Below are positions 1,342-32,988 of a DNA stretch of 64,000 nucleotides, one piece after another; within the stretch, counting starts at the first letter, position 1; each line of letters opens with the position of its first letter. The stretch comes from Pyrinomonadaceae bacterium. Lineage in GTDB: Bacteria; Acidobacteriota; Blastocatellia; Pyrinomonadales; Pyrinomonadaceae. The notes under the pieces were generated by a model. The model saw nothing but the letters and a program-made list of their open reading frames with translations, searched no databases and was not told the origin of the DNA. The translations under genes were made by a program, and so were the position numbers. The stretch is from contig JBOGOP010000003.1 of NCBI GenBank assembly GCA_050747225.1, positions 7,893 through 71,892 on the forward strand. The letters run 5' to 3'.

Positions 1342-1356
1342 GAAGGGCGAAGGAAT

Positions 1357-1438: not shown

Positions 1439-1446
1439 TTTTCTTT

Positions 1447-1522: not shown

Positions 1523-1527
1523 GAATC

Positions 1528-1616: not shown

Positions 1617-1621
1617 GCTTA

Positions 1622-1696: not shown

Positions 1697-1699
1697 GGA

Positions 1700-1798: not shown

Positions 1799-1815
1799 AT
1801 CTTTTCGTCAGAAAC

Positions 1816-2394
1816 CTAAGACCTTCTTTCTTTGTGCACCTTCTCCATAACGTCACGATCGTCGTGCACGTCCATGAAGAGGTACTTGCGCCATTCAGCG
1901 CGTGCCTCAGCGTAGTGACAAAGCACGACGCGTTCGAGTTTCACGCGCAGCGCTGACTGCGAAGTCAGGAGCGGCATGCGCGCTTCACCCGGAGTGCGGT
2001 TCGCCTTGCGGTTATTACAAGGAACGCAAGCTGTCACTATGTTCACTGGCGAGTTATCACCACCACGCGAACGCGGCATAATGTGATCGAGTGTCAGCTC
2101 AGCCACACCTTTCTTTTCCGCGCAATACTGGCAGCGAAACTTGTCGCGCATGTAAATCCGCAGACGCTTCATGCCCGACTGCTCGCGGCGACGGCGAACG
2201 TTGATGTAAGTGCGTCGGCGAATCACCGACGGCACCGGAAATTCATCATGCGCCGAACGCAGCACGCGATCGCCGTCCCATTCCTCAACGAAGACGCTGT
2301 TTTTGAAAGTCATGATGACCGCGCGTGCAACACCGACAGTGCCGAGCGGTTCGTAAGTTTGATTGAGTAGTAGAACTCTGCCATTGAGTGCCAT
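1816..2394 (-). CDS. HNH endonuclease (Zn-finger type) embedded in the tRNA array
   Basis: ORF 1816..2448 trimmed to the ATG at 2394, which lies 9 nt downstream of AAGGAGG (2404-2410). The motifs are CQYC...LDHIMPRSRGG...N..CVPCNNRK. Confidence 0.8.
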   Translation of the reverse strand: MALNGRVLLLNQTYEPLGTVGVARAVIMTFKNSVFVEEWDGDRVLRSAHDEFPVPSVIRRRTYINVRRRREQSGMKRLRIYMRDKFRCQYCAEKKGVAELTLDHIMPRSRGGDNSPVNIVTACVPCNNRKANRTPGEARMPLLTSQSALRVKLERVVLCHYAEARAEWRKYLFMDVHDDRDVMEKVHKERRS

Positions 2395-2569
2395 CACCCG
2401 GCACCTCCTTTCGTTTGTTTTTTGCCGCGGATTAACGCGGACGAACACAGATAAGAAACTTCGAAGCAGGAAGTCGAGGCCGGCCTGGTCATTTCTGATC
2501 CGCGTTTTTCTGCGTTCGTCCGCGGCTGATTTGGATTTGGACTGCAGCTTAAGACTCCGGAATTGGAGT

Positions 2570-2697
2570 CAAGAGCGGTGGTGAGGAATGACTCGCTAGG
2601 TGCGAGTCCCGCTCTTGAGACTTGAGTAACGCAAACGGTTAGTTTGCGATTGCAAGTTGAGTTAGCTGCAACGATCGCAAACTAACAGTTTGCGTTA
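2570..2697. repeat. Two long hairpins in the leader between tRNA-Cys and the HNH gene
   Basis: Hairpin 2570-2618 pairs CAAGAGCGG with CCGCTCTTG and has an inner GACTCGC/GCGAGTC stem. Hairpin 2627-2697 pairs TAACGCAAACGGTTAGTTTGCGAT with ATCGCAAACTAACAGTTTGCGTTA. Neither is heptamer-periodic. Confidence 0.8.
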
Positions 2698-2705
2698 GAT
2701 AAAAA

Positions 2706-2781
2706 TTGGAGCGCGCGGTGAGACTCGAACTCACGAGTAACGGATTTGCAATCCGCCGCCTTAGCCGCTTGGCGACGCGCG
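2706..2781 (-). tRNA. tRNA-Cys(GCA)
   Basis: Acceptor GCGCGCG/CGCGCGC, U73 (Cys identity), CCA. Anticodon arm GCGGA-TTGCAAA-TCCGT. Confidence 0.9.
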
Positions 2782-2784
2782 CAC

Positions 2785-2862
2785 TGGAAGGATGAAGGAT
2801 GAAGGCGGAAGGATGAACAAGGCTTTTGCACCAACGAACTTTCATCCTTCATCCTTCATCCT
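2785..2862. repeat. Heptamer-periodic inverted repeat, unit GGATGAA
   Basis: Left arm 2785-2817 and right arm 2839-2862. Confidence 0.9.
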
Positions 2863-2868
2863 TTCAAC

Positions 2869-2944
2869 TGGAGCGGAAGGAGAGATTCGAACTCTCGATT
2901 CGAGTTTGGAAGACTCGCGGGTTTCCAGCTACCGACACTTCCGC
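2869..2944 (-). tRNA. tRNA-Gly(UCC)
   Basis: Acceptor GCGGAAG/CTTCCGC, U73, CCA. Anticodon arm CGAGT-CTTCCAA-ACTCG. T arm GAGAG-TTCGAAT-CTCTC. Confidence 0.88.
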
Positions 2945-2948
2945 AGGG

Positions 2949-3074
2949 AATTTCGGATTGCGAATTTCGGATTTCGGATTTGAAGATTGCGTGGCAGGAA
3001 TCCGGCCACCACTGAAATCACTTGGCATCGAAGCAAAGCTGAATTCGAAATTCGCAATCCGAAATCCGAAATTT
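2949..3074. repeat. Heptamer-periodic inverted repeat, unit CGGATTT
   Basis: Left arm about 2949-2981 and right arm about 3041-3074. The loop is about 60 nt. Confidence 0.85.
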
Positions 3075-3079
3075 GTTTT

Positions 3080-3155
3080 TGGGGCTCCTGGCAGGATTCG
3101 AACCCGCAACCTCGACGTTCGAAGCGTCGCGCTCTTCCAGTTGCGCTACAGGAGC
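3080..3155 (-). tRNA. tRNA-Arg(UCG)
   Basis: Acceptor GCTCCTG/CAGGAGC, C73, CCA. Anticodon arm CGACG-CTTCGAA-CGTCG. Confidence 0.88.
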
Positions 3156-3162
3156 AAAGGGG

Positions 3163-3286
3163 AATTTCGGATTGCGGATTTCGGATTTCGGATTTGAAAA
3201 CGCGCGCGAAGAAGACGGGTGCGGTCGAAATCAGCTTGCGACTTGCCAAAGCCAAATCCGCAATTCGAAGTCCGAATTCCGAAATT
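3163..3286. repeat. Heptamer-periodic inverted repeat, unit CGGATTT
   Basis: Left arm about 3163-3195 and right arm about 3253-3286. Confidence 0.85.
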
Positions 3287-3290
3287 TTTT

Positions 3291-3322
3291 GACTTTAGAC
3301 CTTGGACTTTCGACTTTGGACT
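3291..3322. repeat. Solo heptamer tract (GACTTTG-like x4), no local partner arm
   Basis: Sequence is GACTTTAGACCTTGGACTTTCGACTTTGGACT. The complementary CAAAGTC arms occur in other spacers. Confidence 0.8.
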
Positions 3323-3328
3323 AACGGC

Positions 3329-3402
3329 TGGTCGGGGAGGACAGAATTGAACTGTCGCCACGAGTTCCCAGGACTCGGATGCTCGCGTTACACCACACCC
3401 CG
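3329..3402 (-). tRNA. tRNA-Pro(UGG) with C33
   Basis: C1:G72 and A73 (Pro-like), CCA. Anticodon arm CGAGT-CCTGGGA-ACTCG. The acceptor has one U:U mismatch, and the D loop lacks a GG dinucleotide. Confidence 0.75.
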
Positions 3403-3407
3403 GAAGA

Positions 3408-3518
3408 ATTTCGGATTGCGGATTGCGGATTTCGGATTTGTTGTGAGGCGAATTAGACTTTTACTGGGTTCACGTCGGTTTTTCAATTTCGAAATCCGAA
3501 TTCCGCAATCCGAAATTT
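3408..3518. repeat. Heptamer-periodic inverted repeat, unit CGGATTT/CGGATTG
   Basis: Left arm 3408-3439 and right arm 3485-3518. It abuts the rtcB stop codon. Confidence 0.85.
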
Positions 3519-4697
3519 TCAACCTTTGACGCAGACCACCTGCTTGATCTCGGCAACGATCTTCACCAGATCGCTCTGGTTACGCATCACCGCCTTGATG
3601 TCTTTGTAAGCGCCGGGAATTTCATCCAGCACGCCTACGTCCTTACGACACTCAACGCCGTGTGTTTGTCGCGCCAAATCGTCTTTCGTAAAAGCCCGCT
3701 TGGCAGCGCCACGCGACATCTTGCGTCCCGCTCCGTGCGAACAGGAGTTGAAACTCTCCGCCCGGCCTCGCCCCTGCACGATGAACGATTTCGCGCCCAT
3801 CGAACCGGGGATGATGCCGTACACATCCTTGTCCGCGTTAATCGCGCCCTTGCGTGTGACGAAAACTTTTTCGCCGTAGTGATCTTCGAGCGCAACGTAG
3901 TTGTGATGGCAGTTAACTGCAATCTCAGGCTTGAAAGGCTGACGATGATTAAACATCTTGTTGAAGACCTTCAACAGACGCGTCATCATGATCTCGCGGT
4001 TCTTCATCGCGTAAGCTTGCGCCCACTTCAGGTCTTTCCAGTACGCCGCGAATTCCGGCGTGCCTTGAATGAAGTAAGCAAGATCCGGCGCAGGAAGTTC
4101 CGACAATGCCCACAAACCCTTGGCGGTCGAGATATGACGTTCGGCCAATTCCTTACCGATATTGCGCGAGCCTGAGTGCAGCATCAACCAGACGAAGTTT
4201 TCCGTGTCCAGACAAACTTCGATGAAGTGGTTGCCGCCACCGAGTGTGCCCAGTTGCGTCATCGCTTTCTTCCTGCGATCGCGTACGCCCTGGTGCAGTT
4301 CGCCGAAGTCTTTCCAGCCGTCCCAATCCGAGGCTTCATCTAGGGATTCTTTGTAGGCATTGAAACCGACCGGGATTTCTTCTTCGATCTTCAGACGCAG
4401 ATCCTTCAACTTGCCGTCAAGGATGCCGCTTCTGAATGGTGTCTTCACAGCCATCATGCCGCATCCGATGTCGACGCCGACTGTGGCGGGGATCACCGCT
4501 TCTTTCGTGGCCACGACCGAGCCGACCATGCTGCCTTTGCCCAAATGCGCGTCAGGCATCAGCGCAACGTGCTTGAACAAACATGGCAGACGCGAAACGT
4601 TTCGCAGCATCGCTTGCTCTTCAAAGCTGAACTCGTGACCGGCCCACGACAAGACCTCGGCGTGAGCTCCGCCAATTGGTAGTTTTTCGTAGGGCAT
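3519..4697 (-). CDS. rtcB: RNA 3'-phosphate/5'-OH ligase RtcB, embedded in the tRNA array
   Basis: 392-aa ORF carrying the RtcB blocks DIGCGM, GGGNHFIE, HSGSRNIG, CHHNY, PGSMG and SHGAGR. AGGAG lies 7 nt upstream of the ATG. Confidence 0.93.
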   Translation of the reverse strand: MPYEKLPIGGAHAEVLSWAGHEFSFEEQAMLRNVSRLPCLFKHVALMPDAHLGKGSMVGSVVATKEAVIPATVGVDIGCGMMAVKTPFRSGILDGKLKDLRLKIEEEIPVGFNAYKESLDEASDWDGWKDFGELHQGVRDRRKKAMTQLGTLGGGNHFIEVCLDTENFVWLMLHSGSRNIGKELAERHISTAKGLWALSELPAPDLAYFIQGTPEFAAYWKDLKWAQAYAMKNREIMMTRLLKVFNKMFNHRQPFKPEIAVNCHHNYVALEDHYGEKVFVTRKGAINADKDVYGIIPGSMGAKSFIVQGRGRAESFNSCSHGAGRKMSRGAAKRAFTKDDLARQTHGVECRKDVGVLDEIPGAYKDIKAVMRNQSDLVKIVAEIKQVVCVKG

Positions 4698-4752
4698 GTT
4701 GATTCTCCTTTCTTTAGAATAGTTAAGAACGTGAATTTGTAAATGACAGTTG

Positions 4753-4817
4753 CTGCCTACTGCCTACTGCCCACTGCTTCCTCCTACTGCCCACTGCCTC
4801 CTGCCTCCTGCCTACTG
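4753..4817. repeat. Solo 65-nt heptamer tract (CTGCCTA/CTGCCCA/CTGCCTC units) in the rtcB leader
   Basis: Tandem 7-mers with no complementary arm nearby. On the rtcB-sense strand it reads (CAGTAGG/CAGGAGG)n and contains three AGGAGG. Confidence 0.85.
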
Positions 4818-4822
4818 ATTCT

Positions 4823-4900
4823 TGGTGCGCCAGGTGAGACTCGAACTCACAATCCCCTGCTTAAGAGGCAGGTGCCTTAATCCGATTTAGCTACTGACGC
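4823..4900 (-). tRNA. tRNA-Lys(CUU)
   Basis: Acceptor GCGTCAG/CTGGCGC, A73, CCA. Anticodon arm CCTGC-CTCTTAA-GCAGG. T arm GTGAG-TTCGAGT-CTCAC. Confidence 0.85.
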
Positions 4901-4902
4901 AA

Positions 4903-5003
4903 GGTAGGACAGACATTTCTGTCTGTCCCTGTTAGTTGGGCAAACATGTCTGTCTGTCGCTGTTGTTCGAAAATGGTGGACAGGCAGTGAATGCCTGTCC
5001 TAC
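4903..5003. repeat. Composite REP-like element (GTAGGACAGACA..TGTCTGTCC ... GACAGGCA..TGCCTGTCCTAC)
   Basis: Two internal hairpins plus complementary ends. A second copy is at 28639-28742. Confidence 0.85.
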
Positions 5004-5004
5004 T

Positions 5005-5079
5005 TGGCGGAACTGAACGGACTCGAACCGTCATCGGCCTGGCTGACAACCAGGTGCCTCACCCCTCGGCCACAGTTCC
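5005..5079 (-). tRNA. tRNA-Asp(GUC)
   Basis: Acceptor GGAACTG/CAGTTCC, G73, CCA. Anticodon arm CCTGG-TTGTCAG-CCAGG. Confidence 0.9.
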
Positions 5080-5082
5080 AGA

Positions 5083-5230
5083 CGATTGCGGATTGCGGAT
5101 TTCTGAATGCGGATTGGCATTAGCTCGATGCTTGAAGCGCCTGGTCTTCGCAAATCTCGTGAGACGGGGTCTAAATTCTCCATCGAGTTACCATGCTAAT
5201 CCGCATTCGGCAATCCGAAATCTGCAATCG
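5083..5230. repeat. Heptamer-periodic inverted repeat, unit CGGATTG/CGGATTT
   Basis: Left arm 5083-5124 and right arm 5194-5230. The loop is about 70 nt. Confidence 0.8.
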
Positions 5231-5232
5231 TT

Positions 5233-5308
5233 TGGGTGGGTCGAAGGGAGTTGAACCCTCACCTTACGCGGTCACAACGCGGCGCTCTGCCGTTAAGCTA
5301 CGACCCAC
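5233..5308 (-). tRNA. tRNA-His(GUG) with encoded G-1
   Basis: G-1 opposite C73, acceptor TGGGTCG/CGACCCA, CCA. Anticodon arm CCGCG-TTGTGAC-CGCGT. Confidence 0.9.
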
Positions 5309-5313
5309 ACAAT

Positions 5314-5378
5314 GGGCGACAAGGAATCGAGCGCGACAATCACATTTCAAAGATGTAGTCACGTTCAGCATTCGCCCC
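5314..5378. repeat. 65-nt spacer repeat, copy 1 (tRNA-remnant-like)
   Basis: Shares GGGCGACAAGGAATCGAGCGCGAC ... ATGTAGTCAC[G/A]TTCAGCATTCGCCC with 5595-5651. The minus-strand RNA has GGGCGA/TCGCCC closing pairs, an ACAT-CTTTGAA-ATGT hairpin and a TCGATTCC T-loop-like motif. Confidence 0.7.
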
Positions 5379-5390
5379 GCAATCTTTCTC

Positions 5391-5468
5391 TGGTGCGCGT
5401 GGAGAGATTCGAACTCATCATGTCGCTGATCTTAAGTCAGCCGCCTCTGCCAGTTGGGCTACACGCGC
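5391..5468 (-). tRNA. Class-I (78-nt, short variable region) tRNA with Leu anticodon UAA
   Basis: Acceptor GCGCGTG/CACGCGC, A73, CCA. Anticodon arm GCTGA-CTTAAGA-TCAGC. There is no long variable arm, and the T stem has only about 3 good pairs. Confidence 0.7.
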
Positions 5469-5482
5469 AATCAATTCTCAAC

Positions 5483-5560
5483 TGGTACTCGCGGAGGGAT
5501 TCGAACCCACACTGTACAGTTCTTGAAACTGTCGTCTCCTGCCGATTGGACTACGCGAGC
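5483..5560 (-). tRNA. Class-I (78-nt) tRNA with Leu anticodon CAA
   Basis: Acceptor GCTCGCG/CGCGAGT (G1:U72), A73, CCA. Anticodon arm ACAGT-TTCAAGA-ACTGT. The variable region is 5 nt. T arm GTGGG-TTCGAAT-CCCTC. Confidence 0.75.
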
Positions 5561-5594
5561 AATAGCATGGTGTAGAGTGACGACTCTGATAAAC

Positions 5595-5651
5595 GGGCGA
5601 CAAGGAATCGAGCGCGACTTTGGACAATGTAGTCACATTCAGCATTCGCCC
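5595..5651. repeat. Spacer repeat, copy 2 (tRNA-remnant-like)
   Basis: Direct repeat of 5314-5378 with a diverged middle segment. Confidence 0.7.
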
Positions 5652-5656
5652 GGGAT

Positions 5657-5733
5657 TGGCAGGGATGACGGGACTCGAACCCGCAAATCAGCTGATTGAA
5701 GGTCAGCTTGCTTTCCATTTCGCATTCATCCCC
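5657..5733 (-). tRNA. tRNA-Glu(UUC) with C33
   Basis: Acceptor GGGGATG/CATCCCT (G1:U72), G73, CCA. Anticodon arm (A)GCTGA-CCTTCAA-TCAGC(T). Position 8 is A. Confidence 0.75.
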
Positions 5734-5737
5734 TGAA

Positions 5738-5841
5738 AAATTCGGATTTCGGAATGCGGATTTCGGATTTGTTTCGGCGGAGGCATTCCCTTAACCCGGG
5801 GATTTGCAAATCCGCAATCCGAAATCCGCATTCCGAAATTT
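5738..5841. repeat. Heptamer-periodic inverted repeat, unit CGGATTT
   Basis: Left arm 5738-5771 and right arm 5807-5841. Confidence 0.85.
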
Positions 5842-5844
5842 GAC

Positions 5845-18382: not shown

Positions 18383-20839
18383 ATGGCTAATAACGGCTCA
18401 AAAAATGGGAAGCCGCTGAGCGTAGTCGGCAAGCCTTTTCGCAAGGTCGACGCACGCGCGAAGTGCACCGGCCAGACGAAGTTTGCCGACGACATCGTGC
18501 TGCCACGGATGTTGTTCTGTAAAATTCTCCGCACACATCTCCCGCATGCGCTGATCAAGAATATCGACACCTCGAAAGCCGCTGCCTTGCCCGGAGTTTT
18601 TGCAATTATCACCGGTACAGACCTGCCGATTTCTTACGGCATTCTTCCTGTCAGCCAGGATGAGCATGCGCTATGCATCGATAAGGTGCGCTTCATCGGC
18701 GATCCGGTTGCGGCCGTCGCTGCGGTTGACGAAGATGTCGCCTTCGATGCAATGAACCTCATCGAAGTGGAATATGAACCACTGAACACCATCTCCTCGA
18801 TTGAAGAAGCAATTTTGATCGACGAACCGCGGATTCATGAGTATGGCGACGAAGGGAACATTCACAAGAAAGTGTCACTGGAGTTCGGCAACGTCGAGGA
18901 TGGCTTCGCCGAAGCGGATCTAATTCGCGAGGACACTTTCTTCTACGAAGGCAACACCCACCTGCCGCTGGAACAACACGCCGCTGTCGGCAATTTCGAT
19001 CCTGACAACAAGCTGACGCTCTGGAGTTCGACCCAAACGCCCCACTACGTTCATCGCGCGCTGGCAAAGGTTCTGGAGTTACCTGCCAGCCATATTCGCG
19101 TTATCGCCACGCCAAACGGCGGCGGCTTTGGCGGCAAGAGCGACCCTTTCAATCACGAAGTTGTCGTCTGCAAACTATCGATGATGACGGGACGGCCAGT
19201 GAAGGTAACGCTCACGCGCGAAGAAGTTTTTTATTGTCATCGCGGCCGGCATCCGGTGTTAATGCACATCAAGACCGGCGTGAAAAAAGATGGCGCCATT
19301 ACCGGAATGCATTTCCAGTCGTTCCTCGACGGCGGCGCGTATGGCAGCTATGGCGTGGCCAGCACGTTCTACACGGGCGCTTTGCAAACGGTGACCTACG
19401 ACGTGCCGCGCTACAAGTTTCAGGGACTGCGCGCGTTTACAAACAAACCTCCCTGCGGGCCCAAGCGCGGGCATGGAACGCCGCAGCCGCGTTTTGGTTT
19501 GGAAGTTCAACTCGACAAGATCGCCGAGCAACTGAAACTGGATCCGGCCGCGATGCGTCGAAAGAATTTAGTCGAACCCGGTACCGTCACTGCAAACTAC
19601 CTGCGCATCGGCAGTATGGGGCTCGGTCAATGCATCGATAAGATTGTTGACGGCTCTGACTGGAAAAATAAATTCTCTGGTTGGAACCAGAACAATCGCA
19701 AGCTGCCATACGGCAAAGGCATCGGTATCGCGTGTAGCTCGTACATCTGCGGTGCGGGTTTGCCGATCTACTGGAACAACATGCCACAGTCAGGTGTGCA
19801 GCTTCGATTGGATCGACAGGGCGGCGTCTGCGTGATGTGCGGCTCGACAGATATCGGCCAGGGCTCCGATTCGATTCTCGCTTACATCGTCGCCGAAGTG
19901 CTCGGCATCGATCCTTTCGACATTCGCGTGATCACAGCCGACACGGATCTTACGCCGGTGGATCTAGGTAGTTACTCGAGTCGCGTCACCTTGATGACCG
20001 GCAACGCGGCAATTCAGGCCGCCGAACGCGCGCGGGAGTTGTTAGTGATGGCTGTTGCGGAAAAGCTGGGCGTGCCGATTGAGAATCTTTCGTTAGCTGA
20101 ACGTCGCGTCTTCGATGTCGAGAACCCGGAAGTTGCTGTCTCATTCGCCGAAGCCGTCGTGCTGGCAGAATCAAAGTTTGGAACCATCGGCACGGTCGGC
20201 TCTTATTCGCCTCCACGTTCGCCCGGCAAATATAAAGGCGCCGGCGTTGGCCCTTCGCCTGCCTACAGCTATTCCGCCGCGATTGCTGAAGTTGACGTAG
20301 ATCCCTCGACGGGTATTGTGATTGTCGAGCGCGTTTGGATTGCGCACGACATTGGTAAATCAATCAATCCGATGCTGGTGATGGGACAGGTTGAAGGCAG
20401 CGTCTACATGGGGCTTGGTGAAGCGCTGATGGAAGAGATGACTTACCGCGCCAACCGGAATGTCGTGCACAAGTTTCCTTCGCTGCTGGAATACAAGAGC
20501 CCGACGACGATGGAGATGTGCGACGTTAAGACTTACCTGATCGAGGATCCGGACCCGAATGGACCCTACGGCGCGAAGGAAGTTGGCCAGGGACCGCTGT
20601 TGCCAGTGCCGCCTGCCGTCGCGAACGCAGTCTACGATGCGGTAGGCGTGCGCATTGATGAAGTGCCGATTACGCCGGAGAAAGTTTTGAAAGCGCTGCG
20701 CGATAAAGCCAAGGGCGGCGCTGGGCGATTTGGTCCGGGCGCGGTTCCTTCTGTGGAATGGCCCGAACCGCTACGCGTGTTGACGCCGGCCGAAGGCGGC
20801 GACGGCCGGGAGATGCCGCGTGTGGCCGTGCATTCGTAA
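18383..20839 (+). CDS. Molybdopterin-binding large subunit (HcrA/CoxL-like)
   Basis: 818 aa. Aldehyde-oxidase/xanthine-dehydrogenase a/b hammerhead and MoCo-binding blocks (GGGFGGK, AHDIGKSINP, GAKEVGQGP). Confidence 0.88.
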   Translation: MANNGSKNGKPLSVVGKPFRKVDARAKCTGQTKFADDIVLPRMLFCKILRTHLPHALIKNIDTSKAAALPGVFAIITGTDLPISYGILPVSQDEHALCIDKVRFIGDPVAAVAAVDEDVAFDAMNLIEVEYEPLNTISSIEEAILIDEPRIHEYGDEGNIHKKVSLEFGNVEDGFAEADLIREDTFFYEGNTHLPLEQHAAVGNFDPDNKLTLWSSTQTPHYVHRALAKVLELPASHIRVIATPNGGGFGGKSDPFNHEVVVCKLSMMTGRPVKVTLTREEVFYCHRGRHPVLMHIKTGVKKDGAITGMHFQSFLDGGAYGSYGVASTFYTGALQTVTYDVPRYKFQGLRAFTNKPPCGPKRGHGTPQPRFGLEVQLDKIAEQLKLDPAAMRRKNLVEPGTVTANYLRIGSMGLGQCIDKIVDGSDWKNKFSGWNQNNRKLPYGKGIGIACSSYICGAGLPIYWNNMPQSGVQLRLDRQGGVCVMCGSTDIGQGSDSILAYIVAEVLGIDPFDIRVITADTDLTPVDLGSYSSRVTLMTGNAAIQAAERARELLVMAVAEKLGVPIENLSLAERRVFDVENPEVAVSFAEAVVLAESKFGTIGTVGSYSPPRSPGKYKGAGVGPSPAYSYSAAIAEVDVDPSTGIVIVERVWIAHDIGKSINPMLVMGQVEGSVYMGLGEALMEEMTYRANRNVVHKFPSLLEYKSPTTMEMCDVKTYLIEDPDPNGPYGAKEVGQGPLLPVPPAVANAVYDAVGVRIDEVPITPEKVLKALRDKAKGGAGRFGPGAVPSVEWPEPLRVLTPAEGGDGREMPRVAVHS

Positions 20840-20840
20840 G
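20810..20840. repeat. Direct repeat A (3' end of the large-subunit gene)
   Basis: GAGATGCCGCGTGTGGCCGTGCATTCGTAAG matches 22363-22392 with one internal mismatch and a different stop codon. Confidence 0.9.
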
Positions 20841-20968
20841 TTTGAAAGAAGGCTTGTATGGAAAAGAGAACGCGATCGGAAGCCTCGACATTGCGCTCTG
20901 CGGGCCATGTCCGCACAATTCGGACTATTAGAGAAATTGTGAAGCATGCTAGCGAGGTGGCTGCTCTC

Positions 20969-21418
20969 ATGGGTGAAGTCAGAGTACAAGTGAGGCTAGC
21001 CAACGGCGTTGACGAAGCATTGGTTCGGCGAGGACTGCTTGCGTCGGATCAGGTTCGTTATTACGAGACAACCGCGCTAGTTGATACGGGGGCGATTCGC
21101 TCCGTGCTGCCGGTTCAGGTGCTTCAGCATTTAGGATTGGGAGTTGTGAGAACGGCACGTGCCGTTTACGCGAATGACTCGCGCGAAGAAGTTGACGTTT
21201 CGGAAATGGTCGGTATAGACATTATGGGACGTCGTACCACGGAAGAGATGCTGGTGCTCGGCTCGGAAGTTTTGATCGGGCAAACGGTGCTTGAGACGCT
21301 CGATCTGCTGGTCGACTGCACCAATCTTCGCCTGGTACCAAACCCGGATCATCCCGATCAGCCACTGATAAAAGTTAAGCTGTTCCCCAGGCCCAAAGTG
21401 GCGACGACCGCGAGTTGA
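20969..21418 (+). CDS. Retropepsin-like (clan AA) aspartic protease
   Basis: ORF 20858..21418 trimmed to the ATG at 20969, which has GAGGTGG 8 nt upstream. It carries ALVDTGA (the DTG active-site motif) and a downstream LIGQTVLE. Confidence 0.6.
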   Translation: MGEVRVQVRLANGVDEALVRRGLLASDQVRYYETTALVDTGAIRSVLPVQVLQHLGLGVVRTARAVYANDSREEVDVSEMVGIDIMGRRTTEEMLVLGSEVLIGQTVLETLDLLVDCTNLRLVPNPDHPDQPLIKVKLFPRPKVATTAS

Positions 21419-21440
21419 GGTGCGCTCATGAGGCGAGCCG

Positions 21441-21704
21441 ATGGGTAAAGATGAGAAACTGCTGTCGGATCTTTTGCGCGGTAGATCGGATGCAAATATC
21501 GAGTTTGAAGACTTGTGCCAACTGCTCCGCAGTCTTGGCTTCGATGAGCGGATAAGCGGAAGCCATCACATCTTTCGCAGAACAGGGATTGAAGCAAGGA
21601 TTAACCTGCAGCGAGACAAAAGGAAGGCCAAGGTCTACCAGGTTCGGCAAGTGCGAGCCGTCATTGTTAAGCACGGACTAGCAGGAGAGAGTGACGATGC
21701 ATAA
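21441..21704 (+). CDS. hicA: HicA-family mRNA-interferase toxin
   Basis: About 87 aa. The pattern LLRSLGFDERISGSHHIFRR...VYQVRQVRAVIVKHGL is HicA/YcfA-like. Confidence 0.7.
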   Translation: MGKDEKLLSDLLRGRSDANIEFEDLCQLLRSLGFDERISGSHHIFRRTGIEARINLQRDKRKAKVYQVRQVRAVIVKHGLAGESDDA

Positions 21705-21909
21705 GTACGAAGTGATCATTTACTGGAGTAATGAAGATCAGGTTTTCGTCGCGGAAGTTCCCGAGCTCCCAGGTTGCATGGCGCACGGCGATACCAAGGC
21801 CGAAGCGCTGGCAAACGCCGATGAGGCGATTCAACTGTGGATCGACACCGCTCAAGAATTCGGCGATCCGATTCCTGAGCCAAAGGGTCAGCGACTGATG
21901 TTGGCCTAG
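21697..21909 (+). CDS. hicB: HicB-family antitoxin (short form)
   Basis: YEVIIYWSNEDQVFVAEVPELPGCMAHGDTKAEALANADEAIQLWI. The start overlaps the hicA stop, with AGGAGAGA upstream. Confidence 0.7.
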   Translation: MHKYEVIIYWSNEDQVFVAEVPELPGCMAHGDTKAEALANADEAIQLWIDTAQEFGDPIPEPKGQRLMLA

Positions 21910-21956
21910 CAGTCAATGAGCGAGGGTCGTGGCGGGAAAGTAGCTGTGCATTCGTT

Positions 21957-22292
21957 ATGAGCGTCTGGTATGCCTTCAAGTCTGGTGAATCGATTGGGCA
22001 GACAGGCTCCGAGAAGGGAAAGATTTTGCGTGACGACGAGCACAGGGACGGCGCTCGCGTTACCTTAGAGCGCGTCAGACACAATCGCTTCACGATCACA
22101 TGCGGGATTTATGGCTGGATGGTTCATACTCGATTCTTCAATTCTGAAGCCGCTGCGCAAATTGGATTCGATGAGACGAAAGATGAATTAAGCAAGATTC
22201 TCGGCTTGATACCGCTTGAAAGCGAAGCCGATGATGACAGACTAGAAGTTGCCAAGGTTGCGATCTCTGATTTCGTTGAACGAGGTGAATAG
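21957..22292 (+). CDS. Hypothetical protein (111 aa)
   Basis: Open frame with normal amino-acid composition. No motif recognised. Confidence 0.4.
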   Translation: MSVWYAFKSGESIGQTGSEKGKILRDDEHRDGARVTLERVRHNRFTITCGIYGWMVHTRFFNSEAAAQIGFDETKDELSKILGLIPLESEADDDRLEVAKVAISDFVERGE

Positions 22293-22362
22293 TTTGTGTC
22301 TTTGGATAAGATGAAGAGTAGGAAAGTGAAAACTGAGGCTGACGACGATCTTCAATGGCTAC

Positions 22363-22392
22363 GAGATGCCGCGCGTGGCCGTGCATTCGTGA
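22363..22392. repeat. Direct repeat B (orphan copy of the large-subunit 3' end)
   Basis: GAGATGCCGCGCGTGGCCGTGCATTCGTGA still encodes EMPRVAVHS-stop. An in-frame stop lies about 12 codons upstream, so it is not part of a gene. Confidence 0.9.
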
Positions 22393-22410
22393 TAAGGACT
22401 CAGCGTACGC

Positions 22411-22695
22411 ATGCAATTTGAATGGGATCCGAAAAAAGCAAAGAGCAATCTTCGCAAGCACCGTGTTTCATTCAGCGAGGCCATTATGGTTTTCAGTGAT
22501 GTTTTCTCATTCACTTACGATGATGCGGCAAACTCGCATGGCGAGCAAAGATACGTTACGCTTGGGATGTCCGCTCAAAGCCGCCGGGGTGTACTCGTAG
22601 TAGCGCATACCATGCAAGGCGAAAAAGTCAGGCTAATAAGCGCGCGAAAGGCTACACCGCGCGAAAGAAGAGCATATGAAGAAGAAAACAAATAG
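22411..22695 (+). CDS. brnT: BrnT-family (DUF497) toxin
   Basis: MQFEWDPKKAKSNLRKHRVSFSEA...VLVVAHT...RLISARKATPRERRAYEE. Confidence 0.85.
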   Translation: MQFEWDPKKAKSNLRKHRVSFSEAIMVFSDVFSFTYDDAANSHGEQRYVTLGMSAQSRRGVLVVAHTMQGEKVRLISARKATPRERRAYEEENK

Positions 22696-22960
22696 AGCCG
22701 AAGGCGAAGAGGACATGTTGCCAGAGTATGACTTCAGCAAGATGAAGCTCGTCGGGCGTGGAATCTATGCCAAACGGTTTCGTGCGGGCACGAACATTGT
22801 ATTGTTGGATCGTGACGTCCGAAAAGCTTTCCCTGATGACGAATCGGTGAATGAAGCGCTGCGTGTAATCGCCAAGCTGGCAAAACAGCAGGCCTCGCGC
22901 GCCCGAAAGCCTCAGCGGCGGAGCGCGAAACAGGCACCGAAGTCGCGACGGGCAGCATAA
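22676..22960 (+). CDS. brnA: BrnA-like antitoxin
   Basis: Overlaps the brnT stop. It carries the EYDFSKMK..GRGIYAKRF motif typical of BrnT partners. An alternative ATG is at 22715. Confidence 0.6.
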   Translation: MKKKTNRAEGEEDMLPEYDFSKMKLVGRGIYAKRFRAGTNIVLLDRDVRKAFPDDESVNEALRVIAKLAKQQASRARKPQRRSAKQAPKSRRAA

Positions 22961-23075
22961 GCCCGATGAGCAAACAAGAACCCTCGACCTATAGACCTTT
23001 TGTCTTCACTGTAATTGAAGACGATGGGGTGAACGTCGAAATAGAAGGCTACTCCCGGACACCGACGATCCCATC

Positions 23076-23609
23076 TTGAAAGCGAAAACCATCAATGTTG
23101 GAGCGTTCCTAGACGAGGGCCTTAGGCTTTTCAGAGAGCGGGGCATGGTTAGTTGCTGGCAGATGAACGCCTGTGAATCGGCGGGGATGTGGACTCAGTA
23201 CGGAAAGAACACCGACGCAATATGCATTCAAAGTACATACTCAACGTTTAGAGCGTGTCTTGATGGGGCGATCCACGACGCGTTAGCAAAGTGCGGTGAG
23301 ACCACGATTCATACGGGATTGGTGGATTATGGCTATGACCCCCCAAGCGATCATTGGAAAGCTGCTATGTACAAACGTAAAGAGTATGCACAAGAGCAAG
23401 AGATGCGCGCGCTTGTCTGTAATTATAACGAAGTACCCGAAGTCGGCATGTACATCAAAGTTGATCTTGACCTACTAGTGGACGTCATTTATGTAGCTCC
23501 GAATTCAAACCCTTGGTTCATATTTCTGGTAAAGCAGGTCATCAACAGGTACGGCTTGCCTAACAAGCCGGTTGAACGCTCAGCATTGGAAGAAAAGCCC
23601 TATTTCTGA
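23076..23609 (+). CDS. DUF2971-like protein, possibly 5'-truncated or frameshifted
   Basis: TTG start. The CWQMNACESAGMWTQYGKNTDAICIQ motif resembles DUF2971. A 37-codon ORF (22966-23079) in another frame abuts the start. Confidence 0.4.
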   Translation: MKAKTINVGAFLDEGLRLFRERGMVSCWQMNACESAGMWTQYGKNTDAICIQSTYSTFRACLDGAIHDALAKCGETTIHTGLVDYGYDPPSDHWKAAMYKRKEYAQEQEMRALVCNYNEVPEVGMYIKVDLDLLVDVIYVAPNSNPWFIFLVKQVINRYGLPNKPVERSALEEKPYF

Positions 23610-23624
23610 TTTCGTGACAAGCTT

Positions 23625-24614
23625 ATGATGCGACTGCCCAAATTTGACTACCGCGTCCCGCGAGAGATCGCGGAGGCGGTGAAGATCATCGCCGGCGCAG
23701 GACCGGAAGGGCAGTTCGTTGCCGGCGGCACCGATCTCTATCCAAACATGAAGCGCCGTCAACAGACGCCGCGCACTGTCATTTCCGTGATGCGCCTGCC
23801 GGAATTGAATCAGATAACAGGCGACGGCAAGTCAGGCATTCGCATCGGCGCGTCCGTTACCCTCACTGACATCGTCGAGCATCCACTAATCAACCGCGAC
23901 TATCCGGTCATCGCTCACGCAGCGCGCTCAATCTCCACGCCCATCCTGCGCAACATGGGCACCATCGGCGGAAATCTTTTATTGGATACGCGCTGCAACT
24001 ACTACGATCAGAACTACGAATGGCGCAAAGGCATAAATTTCTGTTTGAAAAAAGACGGCGACGTTTGTTGGGTTGCACCCGGGAGCTCGAAGTGTTGGGC
24101 GGTGCAGTCATCGGATCTGGTACCGGTAATGGTGGCGATCGGCGCCAGGTTTCGTTTGGCGTCAACGCTGGGCGAGCGAATGATCGACGCCGCGGGGTTC
24201 TACAACGACGACGGCATTGACTATCTGAAGAAGCGGCCGGACGAGTTGCTGGTCGACATTCATTTGCCGCCGCTCAATGGCTGGCGTGCGTCTTATCAAA
24301 AACTTCGCCGCCGTGGCGCGTTTGACTTTCCCGTTCTTGGGGTTGCTGCCTGGGTGCAAGTTGACCATGCGGGTTCGGTCAAGGATGCGAGACTGATCCT
24401 TGGAGGTATCGCGCCATCGCCCGTCGAAGTGAAGGAAGCCGGCGAAGCTTTGCTGGGCGAACCACTCGACGACGATCATATACAGGCCGCCGCTGAAGCC
24501 GCTTACATCAAGGCACGCCCGCTCGACAACACCGACTTCGTCATGAACTGGCGCAAACAGATGACGCGGCAATACACGCTTCGCGCTCTTCAGGAACTGG
24601 TTGCTTCGGAGTAG
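23625..24614 (+). CDS. FAD-binding medium subunit with a 4-Cys insertion (HcrB-like)
   Basis: FAD-binding PCMH-type blocks (AGGTDLYPNMK, GTIGGNL). A Cys-X15-Cys-X7-Cys-X8-Cys insertion spans residues 124-157. Confidence 0.85.
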   Translation: MMRLPKFDYRVPREIAEAVKIIAGAGPEGQFVAGGTDLYPNMKRRQQTPRTVISVMRLPELNQITGDGKSGIRIGASVTLTDIVEHPLINRDYPVIAHAARSISTPILRNMGTIGGNLLLDTRCNYYDQNYEWRKGINFCLKKDGDVCWVAPGSSKCWAVQSSDLVPVMVAIGARFRLASTLGERMIDAAGFYNDDGIDYLKKRPDELLVDIHLPPLNGWRASYQKLRRRGAFDFPVLGVAAWVQVDHAGSVKDARLILGGIAPSPVEVKEAGEALLGEPLDDDHIQAAAEAAYIKARPLDNTDFVMNWRKQMTRQYTLRALQELVASE

Positions 24615-24620
24615 GTCCTG

Positions 24621-24737
24621 GGTTGGTCTTTGGACTTAGGTCTTGGGCCTTTGGTCTTTGTGCCGAACCCGACCATGCCAACCTCATGACAAAAACCGAA
24701 ATCCAAAATCCAAAGTCCAAAGTCCAAAGACCAAAGA
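24621..24737. repeat. Heptamer-periodic inverted repeat, units GGTCTTT/CAAAGTC/CAAAGAC
   Basis: Left arm 24621-24660 and right arm 24701-24737. The right arm lies inside the 5' end of the next CDS. Confidence 0.85.
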
Positions 24738-25387
24738 CCGATTCGGTTTCCGCGATAATTCTCGCTGCCGGGCGCTCGCAGCGCATGGGCGCGTTCAAGC
24801 CTCTTCTCCCCTTTGGACCGAGGACCGTAATCGAAACCTGCATTGAGAATATGCGCAGCGGCGGTGTTGAGACTGTTGTGATCGTCATTGGCCAGGGCCC
24901 GCGAGCTGAAAAACTCAAAGCTCATCTGGAGAATTCCAACGTTAACTTTGCCATCAACCCCGATCCGCAGAGCGAGATGAGCGACTCAATCGCCTTTGGC
25001 ATTCGCGCGCTGCCCGAGGGCGTTCACGCTGTCATCATCAATCCCGTGGACCATGCGGCGGTGCCGGGCGAAGTAGTTGCAACGCTGATTAGCGAATGGA
25101 AGCAAGGCGCGCGGCTGGTTAAGCCGATCTGGAAAGAGCGTGGCGGACATCCGGTGTTGATAGACCTGGAATTTCGCGACAAGTTATTGAGTCTCGACCC
25201 AAACGGTGGTCTGAAAACCTTCTTTAGCAATCACCAGGCGCAGGTCAAACGCGTGGCAGTAAATTCGAATTATGTTGCGCGCGACATGGACACGTGGGAT
25301 GATTACGCCGCTTTGCACCAGGAGGTTTTTGGCGATGCAGCGCCGGATTTGCCTCGCGAGGGGGAACGAATGTCCGACGCCAACTAA
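24686..25387 (+). CDS. MobA/MocA-like molybdenum-cofactor nucleotidyltransferase
   Basis: AIILAAGRSQRMG motif. ATG 24686 is the only in-frame start upstream of that motif. Confidence 0.8.
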   Translation: MTKTEIQNPKSKVQRPKTDSVSAIILAAGRSQRMGAFKPLLPFGPRTVIETCIENMRSGGVETVVIVIGQGPRAEKLKAHLENSNVNFAINPDPQSEMSDSIAFGIRALPEGVHAVIINPVDHAAVPGEVVATLISEWKQGARLVKPIWKERGGHPVLIDLEFRDKLLSLDPNGGLKTFFSNHQAQVKRVAVNSNYVARDMDTWDDYAALHQEVFGDAAPDLPREGERMSDAN

Positions 25388-27359: not shown

Positions 27360-27368
27360 TTGCTTATT

Positions 27369-27471
27369 GAACTTTGTACTTTGTTCTTTGTGCTTTGAAC
27401 TTTGCGTCTGCTCGCGGTGGCAATTAAGAAATCGAAGCACAAAAACAAAGTACAAAGAACAAAGTACAAAG
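27369..27471. repeat. Heptamer-periodic inverted repeat, unit ACTTTGT
   Basis: Left arm 27369-27405 and right arm 27435-27471. Confidence 0.9.
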
Positions 27472-32835: not shown

Positions 32836-32988
32836 TTGTACTTTGTTCTTAGAACTTTGGTTCTCCTGGTCTTTGGACTTTGGTCTTAGTGCTTGACCAT
32901 AGCTATGAAATTGATGCTAAAGTCCGAAGATCAAAGACCTAAGTCCAAAGACCTAAGACCAGCCAAGCTCAAAGCGCCAAGTACCAAG
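32836..32988. repeat. Heptamer-periodic inverted repeat (ACTTTGT + GGTCTTT/GGACTTT units)
   Basis: Left arm about 32836-32893 and right arm about 32920-32988. Confidence 0.8.

What the first reader, a model, noticed from the sequence alone, without database searches (positions are those of the whole stretch)
20810..22392. 1.55-kb insertion inside the molybdoenzyme operon, bracketed by ~30-bp direct repeats that duplicate the large-subunit 3' end
Seen in sequence:
- GAGATGCCGCGTGTGGCCGTGCATTCGTAA (20810-20839, the real end of the large-subunit gene) recurs at 22363-22392 as GAGATGCCGCGCGTGGCCGTGCATTCGTGA.
- The second copy still encodes EMPRVAVHS-stop but is cut off by an in-frame stop about 12 codons upstream.
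- Between the copies lie a retropepsin-like protease, a hicA-hicB pair and a 111-aa ORF.
- Beyond the second copy lie brnT-brnA and a DUF2971-like gene, before the operon resumes with the FAD subunit at 23625.

Established knowledge: integrative elements that target a gene's 3' end often carry a replacement copy of it, which leaves att-like direct repeats.

Inference: this is a small integrated cassette, or the scar of a larger element, that delivered TA modules into a catabolic operon. No integrase is present.
Basis: partly seen in the sequence, partly recalled or inferred. Interest (0 to 1): 0.7.

Follow-up and report, generated by a model that had tools for sequence, protein, structure and literature searches.

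The report
Integrase-free gene-cassette hotspot inside an operon
The 30-bp repeat is real, but it is one of several leftover copies of a gene's tail that mark where toxin-antitoxin and other small genes were stacked, apparently by ordinary recombination and not by an integrase, into a spot between two enzyme-subunit genes that differs in almost every related species.

Summary
GAGATGCCGCGTGTGGCCGTGCATTCGTAA (20810-20839) recurs at 22363-22392 with 28/30 matches, against 0 expected by chance.

It is not one 1.55-kb element. Two more decayed copies of the large-subunit 3' end (R) lie at about 21377-21431 and 21928-21957. Each R sits directly upstream of a cassette (hicAB, orf111, brnTA). In other species that same cassette directly follows the real large-subunit stop codon.

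In 63 Pyrinomonadaceae species genomes the large-subunit|FAD-subunit spacer runs from 17 bp (empty) to 3.6 kb. It holds about 40 gene families. All credible ORFs point the same way as the operon, and none is an integrase or transposase.

Single-cassette arrays lack flanking repeats, with one exception (L034). R lengths vary. R is conserved as codons, not as a DNA site. One related contig (L082) lacks hicAB and is 100% identical to the window from the orf111 stop into the FAD gene, but only 82-88% identical to its left.

Best reading (confidence about 0.6): this is a recombination-driven cassette hotspot. R copies are scars of donor large-subunit tails, carried in by one-sided homologous plus illegitimate recombination anchored on the FAD-gene side. 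The site-specific att reading is only partly supported.

It is a new variant of a known kind, of moderate interest.

The parts
18383..20839 (+). Large (molybdopterin-binding) subunit gene, 4-hydroxybenzoyl-CoA-reductase-alpha-like. It forms the left border of the hotspot.
   Evidence: Pfam MoCoBD_1, MoCoBD_2 and Ald_Xan_dh_C. NCBIfam TIGR03194: 826 bits, below the 995-bit cut-off, matching residues 21-772. Relatives in 80 loci are 87-96% identical at the amino-acid level.
20810..20839 (+). R1, the functional 3' end of the large-subunit gene (EMPRVAVHS plus stop). It is the template of the repeat.
   Evidence: It is conserved in all loci, including empty sites, and sequences diverge immediately after the stop codon.
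20858..21418 (+). RETRO, a clan-AA (retropepsin-like) aspartic-protease ORF. The conserved core starts near 20972. Whenever it is present in related species, it is the first cassette.
   Evidence: Pfam and NCBIfam hits are weak. There are 877 homologues, named 'clan AA aspartic protease' by their sources. It is first in 17 of 64 arrays.
21377..21431 (+). R4, a decayed copy of the large-subunit 3' end with an apparent internal deletion of about 10 nt. It overlaps the RETRO stop and lies 9 nt before hicA.
   Evidence: Local alignment z=5.1 and a PSSM hit. WIN 21420-21909 aligns with L005 10446-10935, and WIN 21408-21909 with L061. Both alignments run through those genomes' real large-subunit 3' ends into hicA.
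21441..21909 (+). hicA (21441-21704) and hicB (21691-21909), a type II toxin-antitoxin cassette.
   Evidence: Pfam HicA_toxin and HicB_lk_antitox. 86% nucleotide identity to L005, where it is the first cassette. Absent from L082. 68.5% nucleotide identity to a Thiolapillus plasmid hicAB.
21928..21957 (+). R2, a partial copy of the large-subunit 3' end. The core, 21940-21957, is GTAGCTGTGCATTCGTTA. Its last base is the A of the orf111 ATG.
   Evidence: The exact 10-mer GTGCATTCGT occurs 3 times in the window against 0.11 expected. The 18-nt PSSM score is 20.4, against a threshold of 5.3 for a null rate of 5e-5. On its own the alignment is weak (z=2.4). In L007 and L082, orf111 is also preceded by decayed R-like sequence.
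21957..22292 (+). orf111, a 111-aa cassette of unknown function.
   Evidence: No Pfam or NCBIfam hit. Present in the same hotspot in L007, L082 and L085. Relatives at 41-64% identity are widespread in soil metagenomes.
22355..22392 (+). R3, the best-preserved copy of the large-subunit 3' end. The core 22363-22392 matches R1 at 28/30 positions. It lies 18 nt before brnT.
   Evidence: It matches the L063 large-subunit terminus at 34 of 36 positions (WIN 22355-22390), with an exact 29-nt core at 22362-22390. R3 plus brnTA aligns as one piece with the large-subunit|brnTA junctions of L006, L050 and L059, and with the internal R+brnTA units of L016, L063, L007 and L010.
22411..22960 (+). brnT (22411-22695) and an antitoxin candidate in the brnA position (22676-22960).
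   Evidence: Pfam BrnT_toxin E=1e-25. The second gene has no family hit, but it is the conserved partner in at least 8 loci.
22966..23079 (+). c1', a 3'-truncated remnant (37 codons) of the small gene that follows brnA in other arrays.
   Evidence: WIN 22966-23036 is 90% identical to L078 and 76-79% identical to L062 and L017, within the c1 gene. The full c1 is 70-79 aa.
23076..23609 (+). orf177, a 5'-truncated DUF2971-like gene.
   Evidence: It aligns to residues 79-245 of the 249-aa DUF2971 protein P0122. It is unique to this lineage among the 64 arrays.
23625..24614 (+). FAD-binding (beta-like) subunit gene. It forms the right border of the hotspot.
   Evidence: Pfam FAD_binding_5 and CO_deh_flav_C. 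NCBIfam TIGR03195. Sequence upstream of its ATGATG start is unrelated among loci.

Best explanation
The spacer between the large-subunit and FAD-subunit genes of a 4-hydroxybenzoyl-CoA-reductase-like operon is a family-wide hotspot. Small genes accumulate there as a co-oriented array: toxin-antitoxin pairs, defence-like genes and a retropepsin-like gene.

**What the repeats are.** They are not att sites. Each R copy is the tail of a donor genome's large-subunit gene. It arrived attached to a cassette that sat directly after that gene in the donor.

**How the array is built and reshuffled (inferred).** General recombination does the work.
- Double homologous crossovers in the conserved flanks, or in shared cassettes, replace blocks.
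- Occasionally a donor fragment with long homology on the FAD side but only about 65 nt or less of the large-subunit gene on its left is joined behind the resident cassettes. That left joint is illegitimate or uses very short homology. This is homology-facilitated illegitimate recombination.
- The result adds 'R + donor array' to the right of what was already there. It leaves truncated genes at some joints.
- Once present, internal R copies can act as short portable homology for further swaps and deletions.

**Shown versus inferred.** Shown: the anatomy, the comparative pattern and the mosaic identity with L082. Inferred: the recombination pathway, its direction (additions from the FAD side), and co-transcription of the cassettes with the operon.
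For: 1. **Hotspot.** Across 63 species genomes the spacer is 17-3598 nt. It exceeds 300 nt in 49 of 63. The other nine gene junctions of the same cluster exceed 300 nt in 0-18 loci each, and none has a median above 277 nt (the spacer's median is 630 nt).
2. **Sharp borders.** The variable DNA begins exactly after the large-subunit stop and ends exactly at the FAD ATGATG.
3. **Contents.** There are 39 ORF clusters, and all credible ORFs are on the + strand. No recombinase domain was found in the families scanned.
4. **R sits at cassette borders.** It lies upstream of cassettes that are first in other species, with the same spacing. R4 to hicA is 9 nt, and the stop to hicA is 9 nt in L005. R to the deacetylase gene is 9-10 nt, against 8 nt where that gene is first. 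R3 to brnT is 18 nt, against 20-28 nt.
5. **R travels with its cassette.** Internal R+cassette units align as single pieces across the real gene-end|cassette junctions of other genomes. This holds in WIN (twice), L007, L010, L016, L063, L020 and L054.
6. **No repeats where there is no stacking.** Single-cassette arrays have no R at their far end, except L034. Single toxin-antitoxin insertions at panC|small and small|large show no duplication of the upstream gene's end.
7. **No fixed site.** R lengths vary from about 18 to about 65 nt. Third-codon positions of R carry little information.
8. **R3 is foreign.** It differs from the window's own R1 at two sites that vary among species (CGT/CGC and TAA/TGA). 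It differs from L082's own gene end, yet it is identical in WIN and L082.
9. **Mosaic identity.** WIN and L082 are 82-88% identical through panB to the large-subunit gene, 65-77% in RETRO and 77-90% in orf111. They are then 100% identical for 2039 nt, from 22287 to the contig end inside the FAD gene. Of 1953 locus pairs, the 99th percentile of FAD-gene identity is 87%.
10. **L082 has one R where WIN has two.** L082 has RETRO-R-orf111. WIN has RETRO-R4-hicAB-R2-orf111.
11. **An illegitimate joint is visible.** c1 is 3'-truncated and orf177 is 5'-truncated at about 23040-23075.
12. **Decay gradient.** In WIN, R4 is more decayed than R2, which is more decayed than R3. In L023 the first R is more decayed than the second. 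This fits older material on the left and newer material on the FAD side.
13. **Foreign composition and origin.** GC falls to 0.46-0.51 in several cassettes, against 0.55-0.61 in the flanks. hicAB has a plasmid-borne relative.
[quoted passage not shown] Hotspots without mobile-element genes, driven by recombination at flanking core genes, are documented (PMC5635113).
Against: - No recombination event was observed directly. The pathway is inferred from scars.
- Natural competence, or any other DNA-entry route, is unknown for these bacteria.
- All comparators are metagenome-assembled genomes. The 100%-identical block in L082 ends at a contig end, so a chimeric join between co-occurring strains is possible. 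That would still need at least one assembly k-mer (roughly 127-141 nt, judging from contig names in the same project) of shared identical sequence to the right of 22287.
- RETRO is always first and is followed by R at about the same place in more than 10 species. This could mean one ancient event, or some specificity, and not repeated random joints.
- The strong preference for this one junction over neighbouring junctions is not explained by the mechanism itself.
- R2 alone is statistically weak (z=2.4).
- The decay gradient rests on only two informative arrays.
Confidence: 0.6

Rival explanations
1. Left-anchored sequential displacement. New cassettes enter next to the large-subunit gene through recombination anchored in that gene. 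The illegitimate joint falls inside the recipient's last 20-65 nt. The recipient's own gene tail and its older cassettes are pushed downstream, so the newest cassette is first. This is the model proposed for V. cholerae type VI effector-immunity arrays.
For: It predicts the same anatomy of R copies in front of displaced cassettes. In L034 an R is fused directly to the FAD ATG as ...TCGTCATGATG. That looks like an old overlapping stop/start junction pushed behind RETRO. The precedent is PMC5361080.
Against: It predicts that the copy nearest the gene is the youngest. In WIN and L023 the proximal R is the most decayed and the distal R is the best preserved. RETRO, which is always first, is only 58-72% identical in amino acids among species whose large subunits are 87-96% identical to the window's, so it is old and not a recent arrival. 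The recently shared 100% block between WIN and L082 lies on the FAD side.
Confidence: 0.15
2. Site-specific integration. The large-subunit 3' end is an attB-like or attI-like site. Cassettes are inserted by a tyrosine or serine recombinase encoded elsewhere and acting in trans. The R copies are att scars.
For: Insertions recur at one precise site in many species. Direct repeats of the target lie between cassettes. All cassettes share one orientation, as in integrons. R follows RETRO at a similar position in many species.
Against: No integrase was found in any scanned cassette family or in the syntenic flanks. There are no attC-like or dif-like inverted repeats at cassette borders. Single cassettes lack the second repeat. 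R length is variable, and there is no DNA-level conservation beyond the codons. No copy of R occurs elsewhere in the window or in 2.9 million viral contigs. At least one joint in the array truncates genes on both sides.
Confidence: 0.12
3. The repeats arose in place, by local tandem duplication or replication slippage of the gene end, and have nothing to do with cassette acquisition.
For: The copies are short, direct and close together.
Against: R3 differs from the resident R1 at sites that vary among species, and it is identical in a genome with a different R1. Each R is contiguous with a cassette exactly as in genomes where that cassette follows the real gene end.
Confidence: 0.04
4. Assembly artefact: the array is a chimera of strains joined at short repeats.
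For: Two other assemblies break at the hicB|orf111 junction.
Against: Both halves were recovered independently at 99.9-100% identity in two other assemblies. The R copies are 38 nt or less, are imperfect, and share at most 17 identical bases in a row, which is shorter than usual assembly k-mers. Analogous arrays occur in many independent genomes.
Confidence: 0.02

Closest known systems
Orphan or displaced module arrays downstream of a conserved gene: V. cholerae type VI effector-immunity arrays, and Rhs/CDI orphan toxin-immunity strings (PMC5361080 and the references it cites)
   Same: A conserved upstream gene is followed by a variable array. Displaced modules keep a fragment of the upstream gene's 3' region. 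There is no dedicated recombinase. The proposed route is homologous plus homology-facilitated illegitimate recombination. Identity between strains is mosaic.
   Different: Here the cassettes have no functional link to the upstream gene, which encodes a molybdoenzyme subunit. The array sits between two subunit genes of one enzyme. The decay pattern suggests additions from the downstream (FAD) side and not displacement from the upstream side. The host is Acidobacteriota.
Hotspots of horizontal transfer flanked by core genes and free of mobile-element genes (Oliveira et al. 2017, PMC5635113; P. aeruginosa core defence hotspots, PMC10250203)
   Same: The flanking core genes are the same in all genomes. 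Content turns over rapidly. There are no integrases or transposases. Defence and toxin-antitoxin genes are present. Exchange is by homologous recombination in the flanks.
   Different: This hotspot is very small (17 bp when empty) and lies inside an operon. Orientation is strictly the same as the operon's. Stacking events can be read from gene-tail scars.
Integron cassette arrays and CALINs (clusters of attC sites lacking an integron integrase)
   Same: Small genes are co-oriented and tightly packed in an array downstream of a fixed point. Toxin-antitoxin cassettes are common. Arrays differ between relatives.
   Different: There is no IntI, no attC sites and no attI. The repeats are coding-sequence remnants and not structured recombination sites.
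Integrative islands that target the 3' end of a gene (for example tRNA-targeting islands)
   Same: Direct repeats of a gene's 3' end lie between successive inserts. An empty site carries a single copy.
   Different: There is no integrase. The repeats are absent around single inserts. Their length is variable. The target is a protein-coding tail conserved only at the codon level.
Toxin-antitoxin modules flanked by duplicated res-like palindromes (Photorhabdus, PMC13617665)
   Same: Chromosomal toxin-antitoxin operons are bracketed by a short duplicated sequence that is single-copy at the empty site.
   Different: Those repeats are palindromic recombinase sites. R is not palindromic and is part of a coding sequence.

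Membership tests
Integrative element with att duplication at a gene's 3' end | An integrase or recombinase gene inside or next to the insert | tested here: not met
   Pfam scans of the window's cassettes and of the scanned cassette families from 64 arrays found no integrase or transposase. The called genes within about 6 kb of loci L081-L083 contain none either.
Integrative element with att duplication at a gene's 3' end | Every insertion is flanked by two copies of the core, and the empty site has one | tested here: not met
   Empty sites do have one copy (L022, L040). Single-cassette arrays have none at the far end, except L034.
Integrative element with att duplication at a gene's 3' end | A constant core or crossover segment conserved at the DNA level | tested here: not met
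   Copy lengths are about 18, 38 and 55-65 nt in the window and 15-45 nt elsewhere. Third-codon positions carry 0.1-0.9 bits.
Integron / CALIN | attC sites (structured imperfect inverted repeats) between cassettes | tested here: not met
   Inter-cassette spacers in the window are 5-118 nt. No inverted repeats lie at the borders. Rfam finds nothing. No attC-specific covariance model was available.
Integron / CALIN | An IntI integrase with an adjacent attI and Pc promoter | tested here: not met
   The gene upstream of the array is the molybdoenzyme large subunit in all 64 loci.
Integron / CALIN | Co-oriented, tightly packed cassettes | tested here: met
   All credible ORFs in the 64 arrays are on the operon strand.
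Displaced-module arrays built by homology-facilitated illegitimate recombination (type VI effector-immunity, Rhs/CDI orphans) | Non-first modules carry a remnant of the conserved upstream gene's 3' end | tested here: met
   Three R copies lie in the window. Further copies occur in L007, L010, L016, L063, L020, L023, L034, L054 and L082.
Displaced-module arrays built by homology-facilitated illegitimate recombination (type VI effector-immunity, Rhs/CDI orphans) | Recombination breakpoints and mosaic identity around the array | tested here: met
   Identity between WIN and L082 switches from 77-90% to 100% at 22287. The caveat is a possible chimeric metagenome contig.
Displaced-module arrays built by homology-facilitated illegitimate recombination (type VI effector-immunity, Rhs/CDI orphans) | Modules are functionally tied to the upstream gene (toxin domain plus immunity) | tested here: not met
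   The cassettes are HicAB, BrnT, DUF6883/DUF4926, a deacetylase, HNH and others. None is related to a molybdoenzyme.
Displaced-module arrays built by homology-facilitated illegitimate recombination (type VI effector-immunity, Rhs/CDI orphans) | One-sided homologous anchor with an illegitimate joint shown experimentally | not testable with these tools
   This needs transformation or conjugation assays in a cultured relative.
Core-gene-flanked hotspot without mobile-element genes | The same flanking core genes, variable content across genomes, no mobility genes | tested here: met
Xer/dif modules | 28-bp XerC/XerD sites flanking each module | tested here: not met
   The sequence 3' of R is unrelated among copies and loci, and there is no dyad symmetry.

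The most novel reading that the evidence does not exclude
The tail of the large-subunit gene could be a genuine recombination site. An as-yet unidentified recombinase acting in trans, or a host system, would use it. The locus would then be an integron-like cassette platform embedded in, and expressed from, a metabolic operon. Its landing pad would be a coding gene tail instead of attI/attC.
Probability: 0.08. Interest if true: 0.85.

Novelty: new variant of a known kind. Interest (0 to 1): 0.5.

Why it matters
This locus shows, at base-pair resolution and across more than 60 species of a little-studied soil family, how toxin-antitoxin and defence-like genes pile up without any mobile-element machinery. 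The scars in the array record each stacking step.

The hotspot sits between two subunit genes of one enzyme, and every cassette points the same way. The cassettes therefore probably ride on the operon's transcript. They may in turn stabilise the operon or burden it.

The gene-tail scars could be used as a general signature for detecting recombination-built cassette arrays in other genomes.

Tried and rejected
- **Other copies of the repeat.** None in the window beyond the gap. None in viral contigs.
- **RNA families.** Rfam finds nothing in 20000-24500.
- **Inverted repeats or attC/dif-like structure at cassette borders.** None found.
- **Target-site duplication as a general rule.** Rejected. 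Single inserts at this junction and at neighbouring junctions lack duplications.
- **Extending the R copies to a common left boundary near the LRVLT codons.** The upstream parts are not individually significant (p=0.05-0.96), so no fixed boundary is claimed.
- **Other mosaic pairs among the species representatives.** Only WIN/L082 stands out.
- **Exact-protein look-ups.** The 159-aa RETRO variant and orf111 found nothing.
- **Plasmid and phage searches of the gap.** One distant hicAB match and nothing else.
- **Promoter and terminator scans.** Uninformative. No convincing + strand terminator lies between cassettes.

Full report
**1. The observation**

The two 30-mers are at the stated coordinates and match at 28 of 30 positions. 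With up to three mismatches the motif occurs only at these two places in the 64-kb window. It occurs in none of 100 shuffles.

The second copy reads EMPRVAVHS-stop in frame. An in-frame stop lies 11 codons upstream of the first codon (E) of that peptide.

- HicA, HicB and BrnT are clear Pfam hits.
- The 'retropepsin' ORF gives only sub-threshold hits to clan-AA aspartic-protease models. It has 877 homologues that their sources name the same way.
- The brnA-position gene and orf111 match no family.
- orf177 is a 5'-truncated, very divergent DUF2971-like gene.

Two further copies of the same gene tail were missed.
- GTAGCTGTGCATTCGTTA lies at 21940-21957, ending on the orf111 start codon. The core 10-mer occurs 3 times against 0.11 expected.
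- A decayed copy lies at about 21377-21431, overlapping the end of the protease ORF (z=5.1).

I call the copies R1 (the real gene end), R4, R2 and R3, from left to right.

**2. What the locus is**

The operon encodes the gamma-, alpha- and beta-like subunits of a 4-hydroxybenzoyl-CoA-reductase-like molybdoenzyme, plus a cytidylyltransferase-like maturation gene. The NCBIfam scores fall below the cut-offs that would assign that exact function.

A scan of one genome per species returned 80 loci. All are Pyrinomonadaceae or Blastocatellia genomes assembled from metagenomes. Their large subunits are 87-96% identical to the window's.

In the 63 loci that hold both genes, the spacer between them ranges from 17 and 22 nt (L022, L040) to 3598 nt (L009). 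Sequence similarity among loci stops exactly at the large-subunit stop codon and resumes exactly at the FAD ATGATG.

This junction is the outlier of the gene cluster. The spacer exceeds 300 nt in 49 of 63 loci, with a median of 630 nt. The other nine junctions exceed 300 nt in 0-18 loci each, and none has a median above 277 nt.

The spacers hold 39 ORF clusters:
- the protease-like gene (RETRO), present in 17 arrays and always first;
- a polysaccharide deacetylase;
- BrnT, its partner, and a small gene c1;
- DUF6883/DUF4926 pairs;
- HicAB;
- a coiled-coil protein;
- DUF4062, HNH, adenylate-cyclase, NOV_C, UDG-like and ChaC genes.

Every credible ORF is on the operon strand. No integrase or transposase domain was found in the families scanned. 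Almost every species has a different array.

**3. What the repeats are**

Each internal R lies immediately upstream of a cassette that directly follows the real gene end in some other species. The spacing is the same in both settings.

The alignments show this directly.
- WIN 21420-21909 matches L005 10446-10935 at 86% identity. WIN 21408-21909 matches L061. Both alignments run through those genomes' genuine large-subunit 3' ends into hicA.
- WIN 22355-23036 matches the large-subunit|brnTA-c1 junctions of L006, L050 and L059. It also matches internal R+brnTA units in L016, L063, L007 and L010.
- Further R copies precede the deacetylase gene (L019, L020, L023, L031, L009), DUF6883 (L020), brnT (L023) and orf111 (L007, L082).

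So R travels with the cassette on its right. It is the tail of a large-subunit gene to which that cassette was once adjacent.

R3 is not a copy of the resident R1. It differs at two sites that vary among species. It is identical in L082, whose own gene end is different.

**4. Against a site-specific origin**

- Single-cassette arrays have no second repeat. L034 is the exception: an R is fused directly to the FAD start.
- Single toxin-antitoxin insertions at neighbouring junctions (panC|small, small|large) show no duplication of the upstream gene's end.
- R copies range from about 18 to about 65 nt, with no demonstrable common boundary.
- Among species, R varies freely at third-codon positions. 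It is constrained as a peptide and not as a DNA site.
- No inverted repeats or known RNA or DNA elements mark the cassette borders.
- The motif is absent from viral contigs.

**5. Evidence for general recombination**

L082 comes from another assembly. It carries RETRO-R-orf111-spacer-R3-brnTA-c1'-orf177-FAD and lacks hicAB. Compared with the window:

| Region | Identity, WIN vs L082 |
|---|---|
| panB to the large-subunit gene | 82-88% |
| RETRO | 65-77% |
| orf111 | 77-90% |
| 22287 to the contig end inside the FAD gene (2039 nt) | 100%, zero differences |

Among 1953 locus pairs, the 99th percentile of FAD-gene identity is 87%. This is a recombination breakpoint at the end of orf111 and a very recent exchange of the distal array between diverged lineages. 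A chimeric metagenome contig is the caveat.

Where L082 has one decayed R between RETRO and orf111, the window has R4-hicAB-R2. The hicAB unit therefore entered or left by recombination within or next to R.

At about 23040-23075, a 3'-truncated c1 abuts a 5'-truncated DUF2971-like gene. That is the signature of an illegitimate joint.

Two independent assemblies break exactly at hicB|R2|orf111. This is consistent with polymorphism there.

Several cassettes have lower GC than the flanks. hicAB has a plasmid-borne relative.

**6. Mechanism**

I propose that most turnover is block replacement by double homologous recombination, in the flanks or in shared cassettes.

Arrays grow when a donor fragment has long homology on the FAD side but only a short stub of the large-subunit gene on its left. 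A longer stub would pair with the resident gene and simply replace the whole array. That would explain why all R copies are about 65 nt or shorter. The left end is then joined behind the resident cassettes by illegitimate or very-short-homology recombination.

This predicts that older material lies to the left. Four observations fit.
- In the window, R4 is more decayed than R2, which is more decayed than R3.
- In L023, the first R is more decayed than the second.
- The always-first RETRO gene is old and divergent.
- The 100% block lies on the FAD side.

The mirror-image 'sequential displacement' model, described for Vibrio type VI clusters (PMC5361080), explains the same anatomy but fits the decay gradient less well.

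Internal R copies may later serve as short homology for swaps or deletions. For example, R1xR3 recombination would remove the 1553 bp.

**7. Comparison with what is known, and verdict**

The locus works like two known kinds of system. One is the hotspot that lacks mobile-element genes and is flanked by core genes (PMC5635113, PMC10250203). The other is the orphan-module array of type VI, Rhs and CDI loci.

It differs from both in four ways. It is lodged between two subunit genes of one enzyme. It is strictly co-oriented with the operon. It is filled with unrelated toxin-antitoxin and defence-like genes. It is found throughout an acidobacterial family.

It fails the tests for integrons, for att-forming islands and for Xer modules.

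No paper on this locus turned up in the one targeted literature search I ran.

The att/integrative-cassette interpretation is only partly supported. The feature is a new variant of a known kind and is of moderate interest.

Noticed in passing
window 133-6519 (- strand): 24 tRNA genes lie in one tight cluster. The spacers between them are filled with period-7 tandem repeats.
   Followed up: partly
window 10270-10387, 11615-11705, 24625-24739, 27367-27471, 32919-32961 and others: Many intergenic spacers hold two short arrays of heptamer repeats that are reverse complements of each other, for example GCAGTAG x6.6 facing CTGCCTA. These could form long periodic hairpins. Similar CTTTTGTGC repeats fill the 'empty' large-subunit|FAD spacers of L064, L048 and L065.
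   Followed up: no
loci L104, L105, L111, L113, L117, L118, L120, L121, L124, L130-L133, L136-L138, L140, L142, L151, L153: In about 20 metagenome contigs, relatives of orf111 (41-64% identical across the hits) sit in the same orientation next to a 767-aa gene that looks like a penicillin-binding protein, or next to 503-aa genes that look like murE/murF, usually between the two. I named those neighbours from their sequences, not from a database search. This would be another small gene lodged inside a conserved operon.
   Followed up: partly
L081 1174-2073 and 2725-3525; panC|small and small|large junctions of L006, L009, L013, L015, L028, L037, L038, L043, L050, L056, L072: Neighbouring junctions of the same gene cluster also take co-oriented small inserts in some species. 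An Mrr-type nuclease and a Polbeta/HepT-like gene have Pfam support. Others I identified only by eye from their sequences: a 73+102-aa pair that looks like a ParE/RelE toxin-antitoxin pair, and a PIN-like gene. None of the inserts at the junctions tested (panC|small, small|large and two others) duplicates the upstream gene's end; the L081 inserts were not tested for this.
   Followed up: partly
window 21922-21953: Two independent assemblies (GCA_975253635.1 and Logan SRR27067736) both break here. Their left contigs end just after hicB, and their right contigs start at R2/orf111. This suggests strain-level polymorphism at the junction.
   Followed up: partly
window 20699-20839 (large-subunit residues 773-818): The large subunit has a C-terminal extension of about 46 residues beyond the 4-hydroxybenzoyl-CoA-reductase alpha profile. 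The repeated tail EMPRVAVHS is the end of this extension. The last 20 codons shown for the 63 compared loci are conserved, including empty-site genomes. Its function is unknown.
   Followed up: no
L034 11033-11062: An R copy is fused directly to the FAD start codon as ...GTGCATTCGTCATGATG. That is one base away from an overlapping TGATG stop/start. The ancestral empty junction may therefore have been translationally coupled.
   Followed up: no
window 24623-24742: The listed 254-aa ORF for the MobA-like gene starts at a TTG inside heptamer repeats. Its Pfam and NCBIfam matches begin at residues 39-44, so the true start is probably about 30-40 codons downstream.
   Followed up: no
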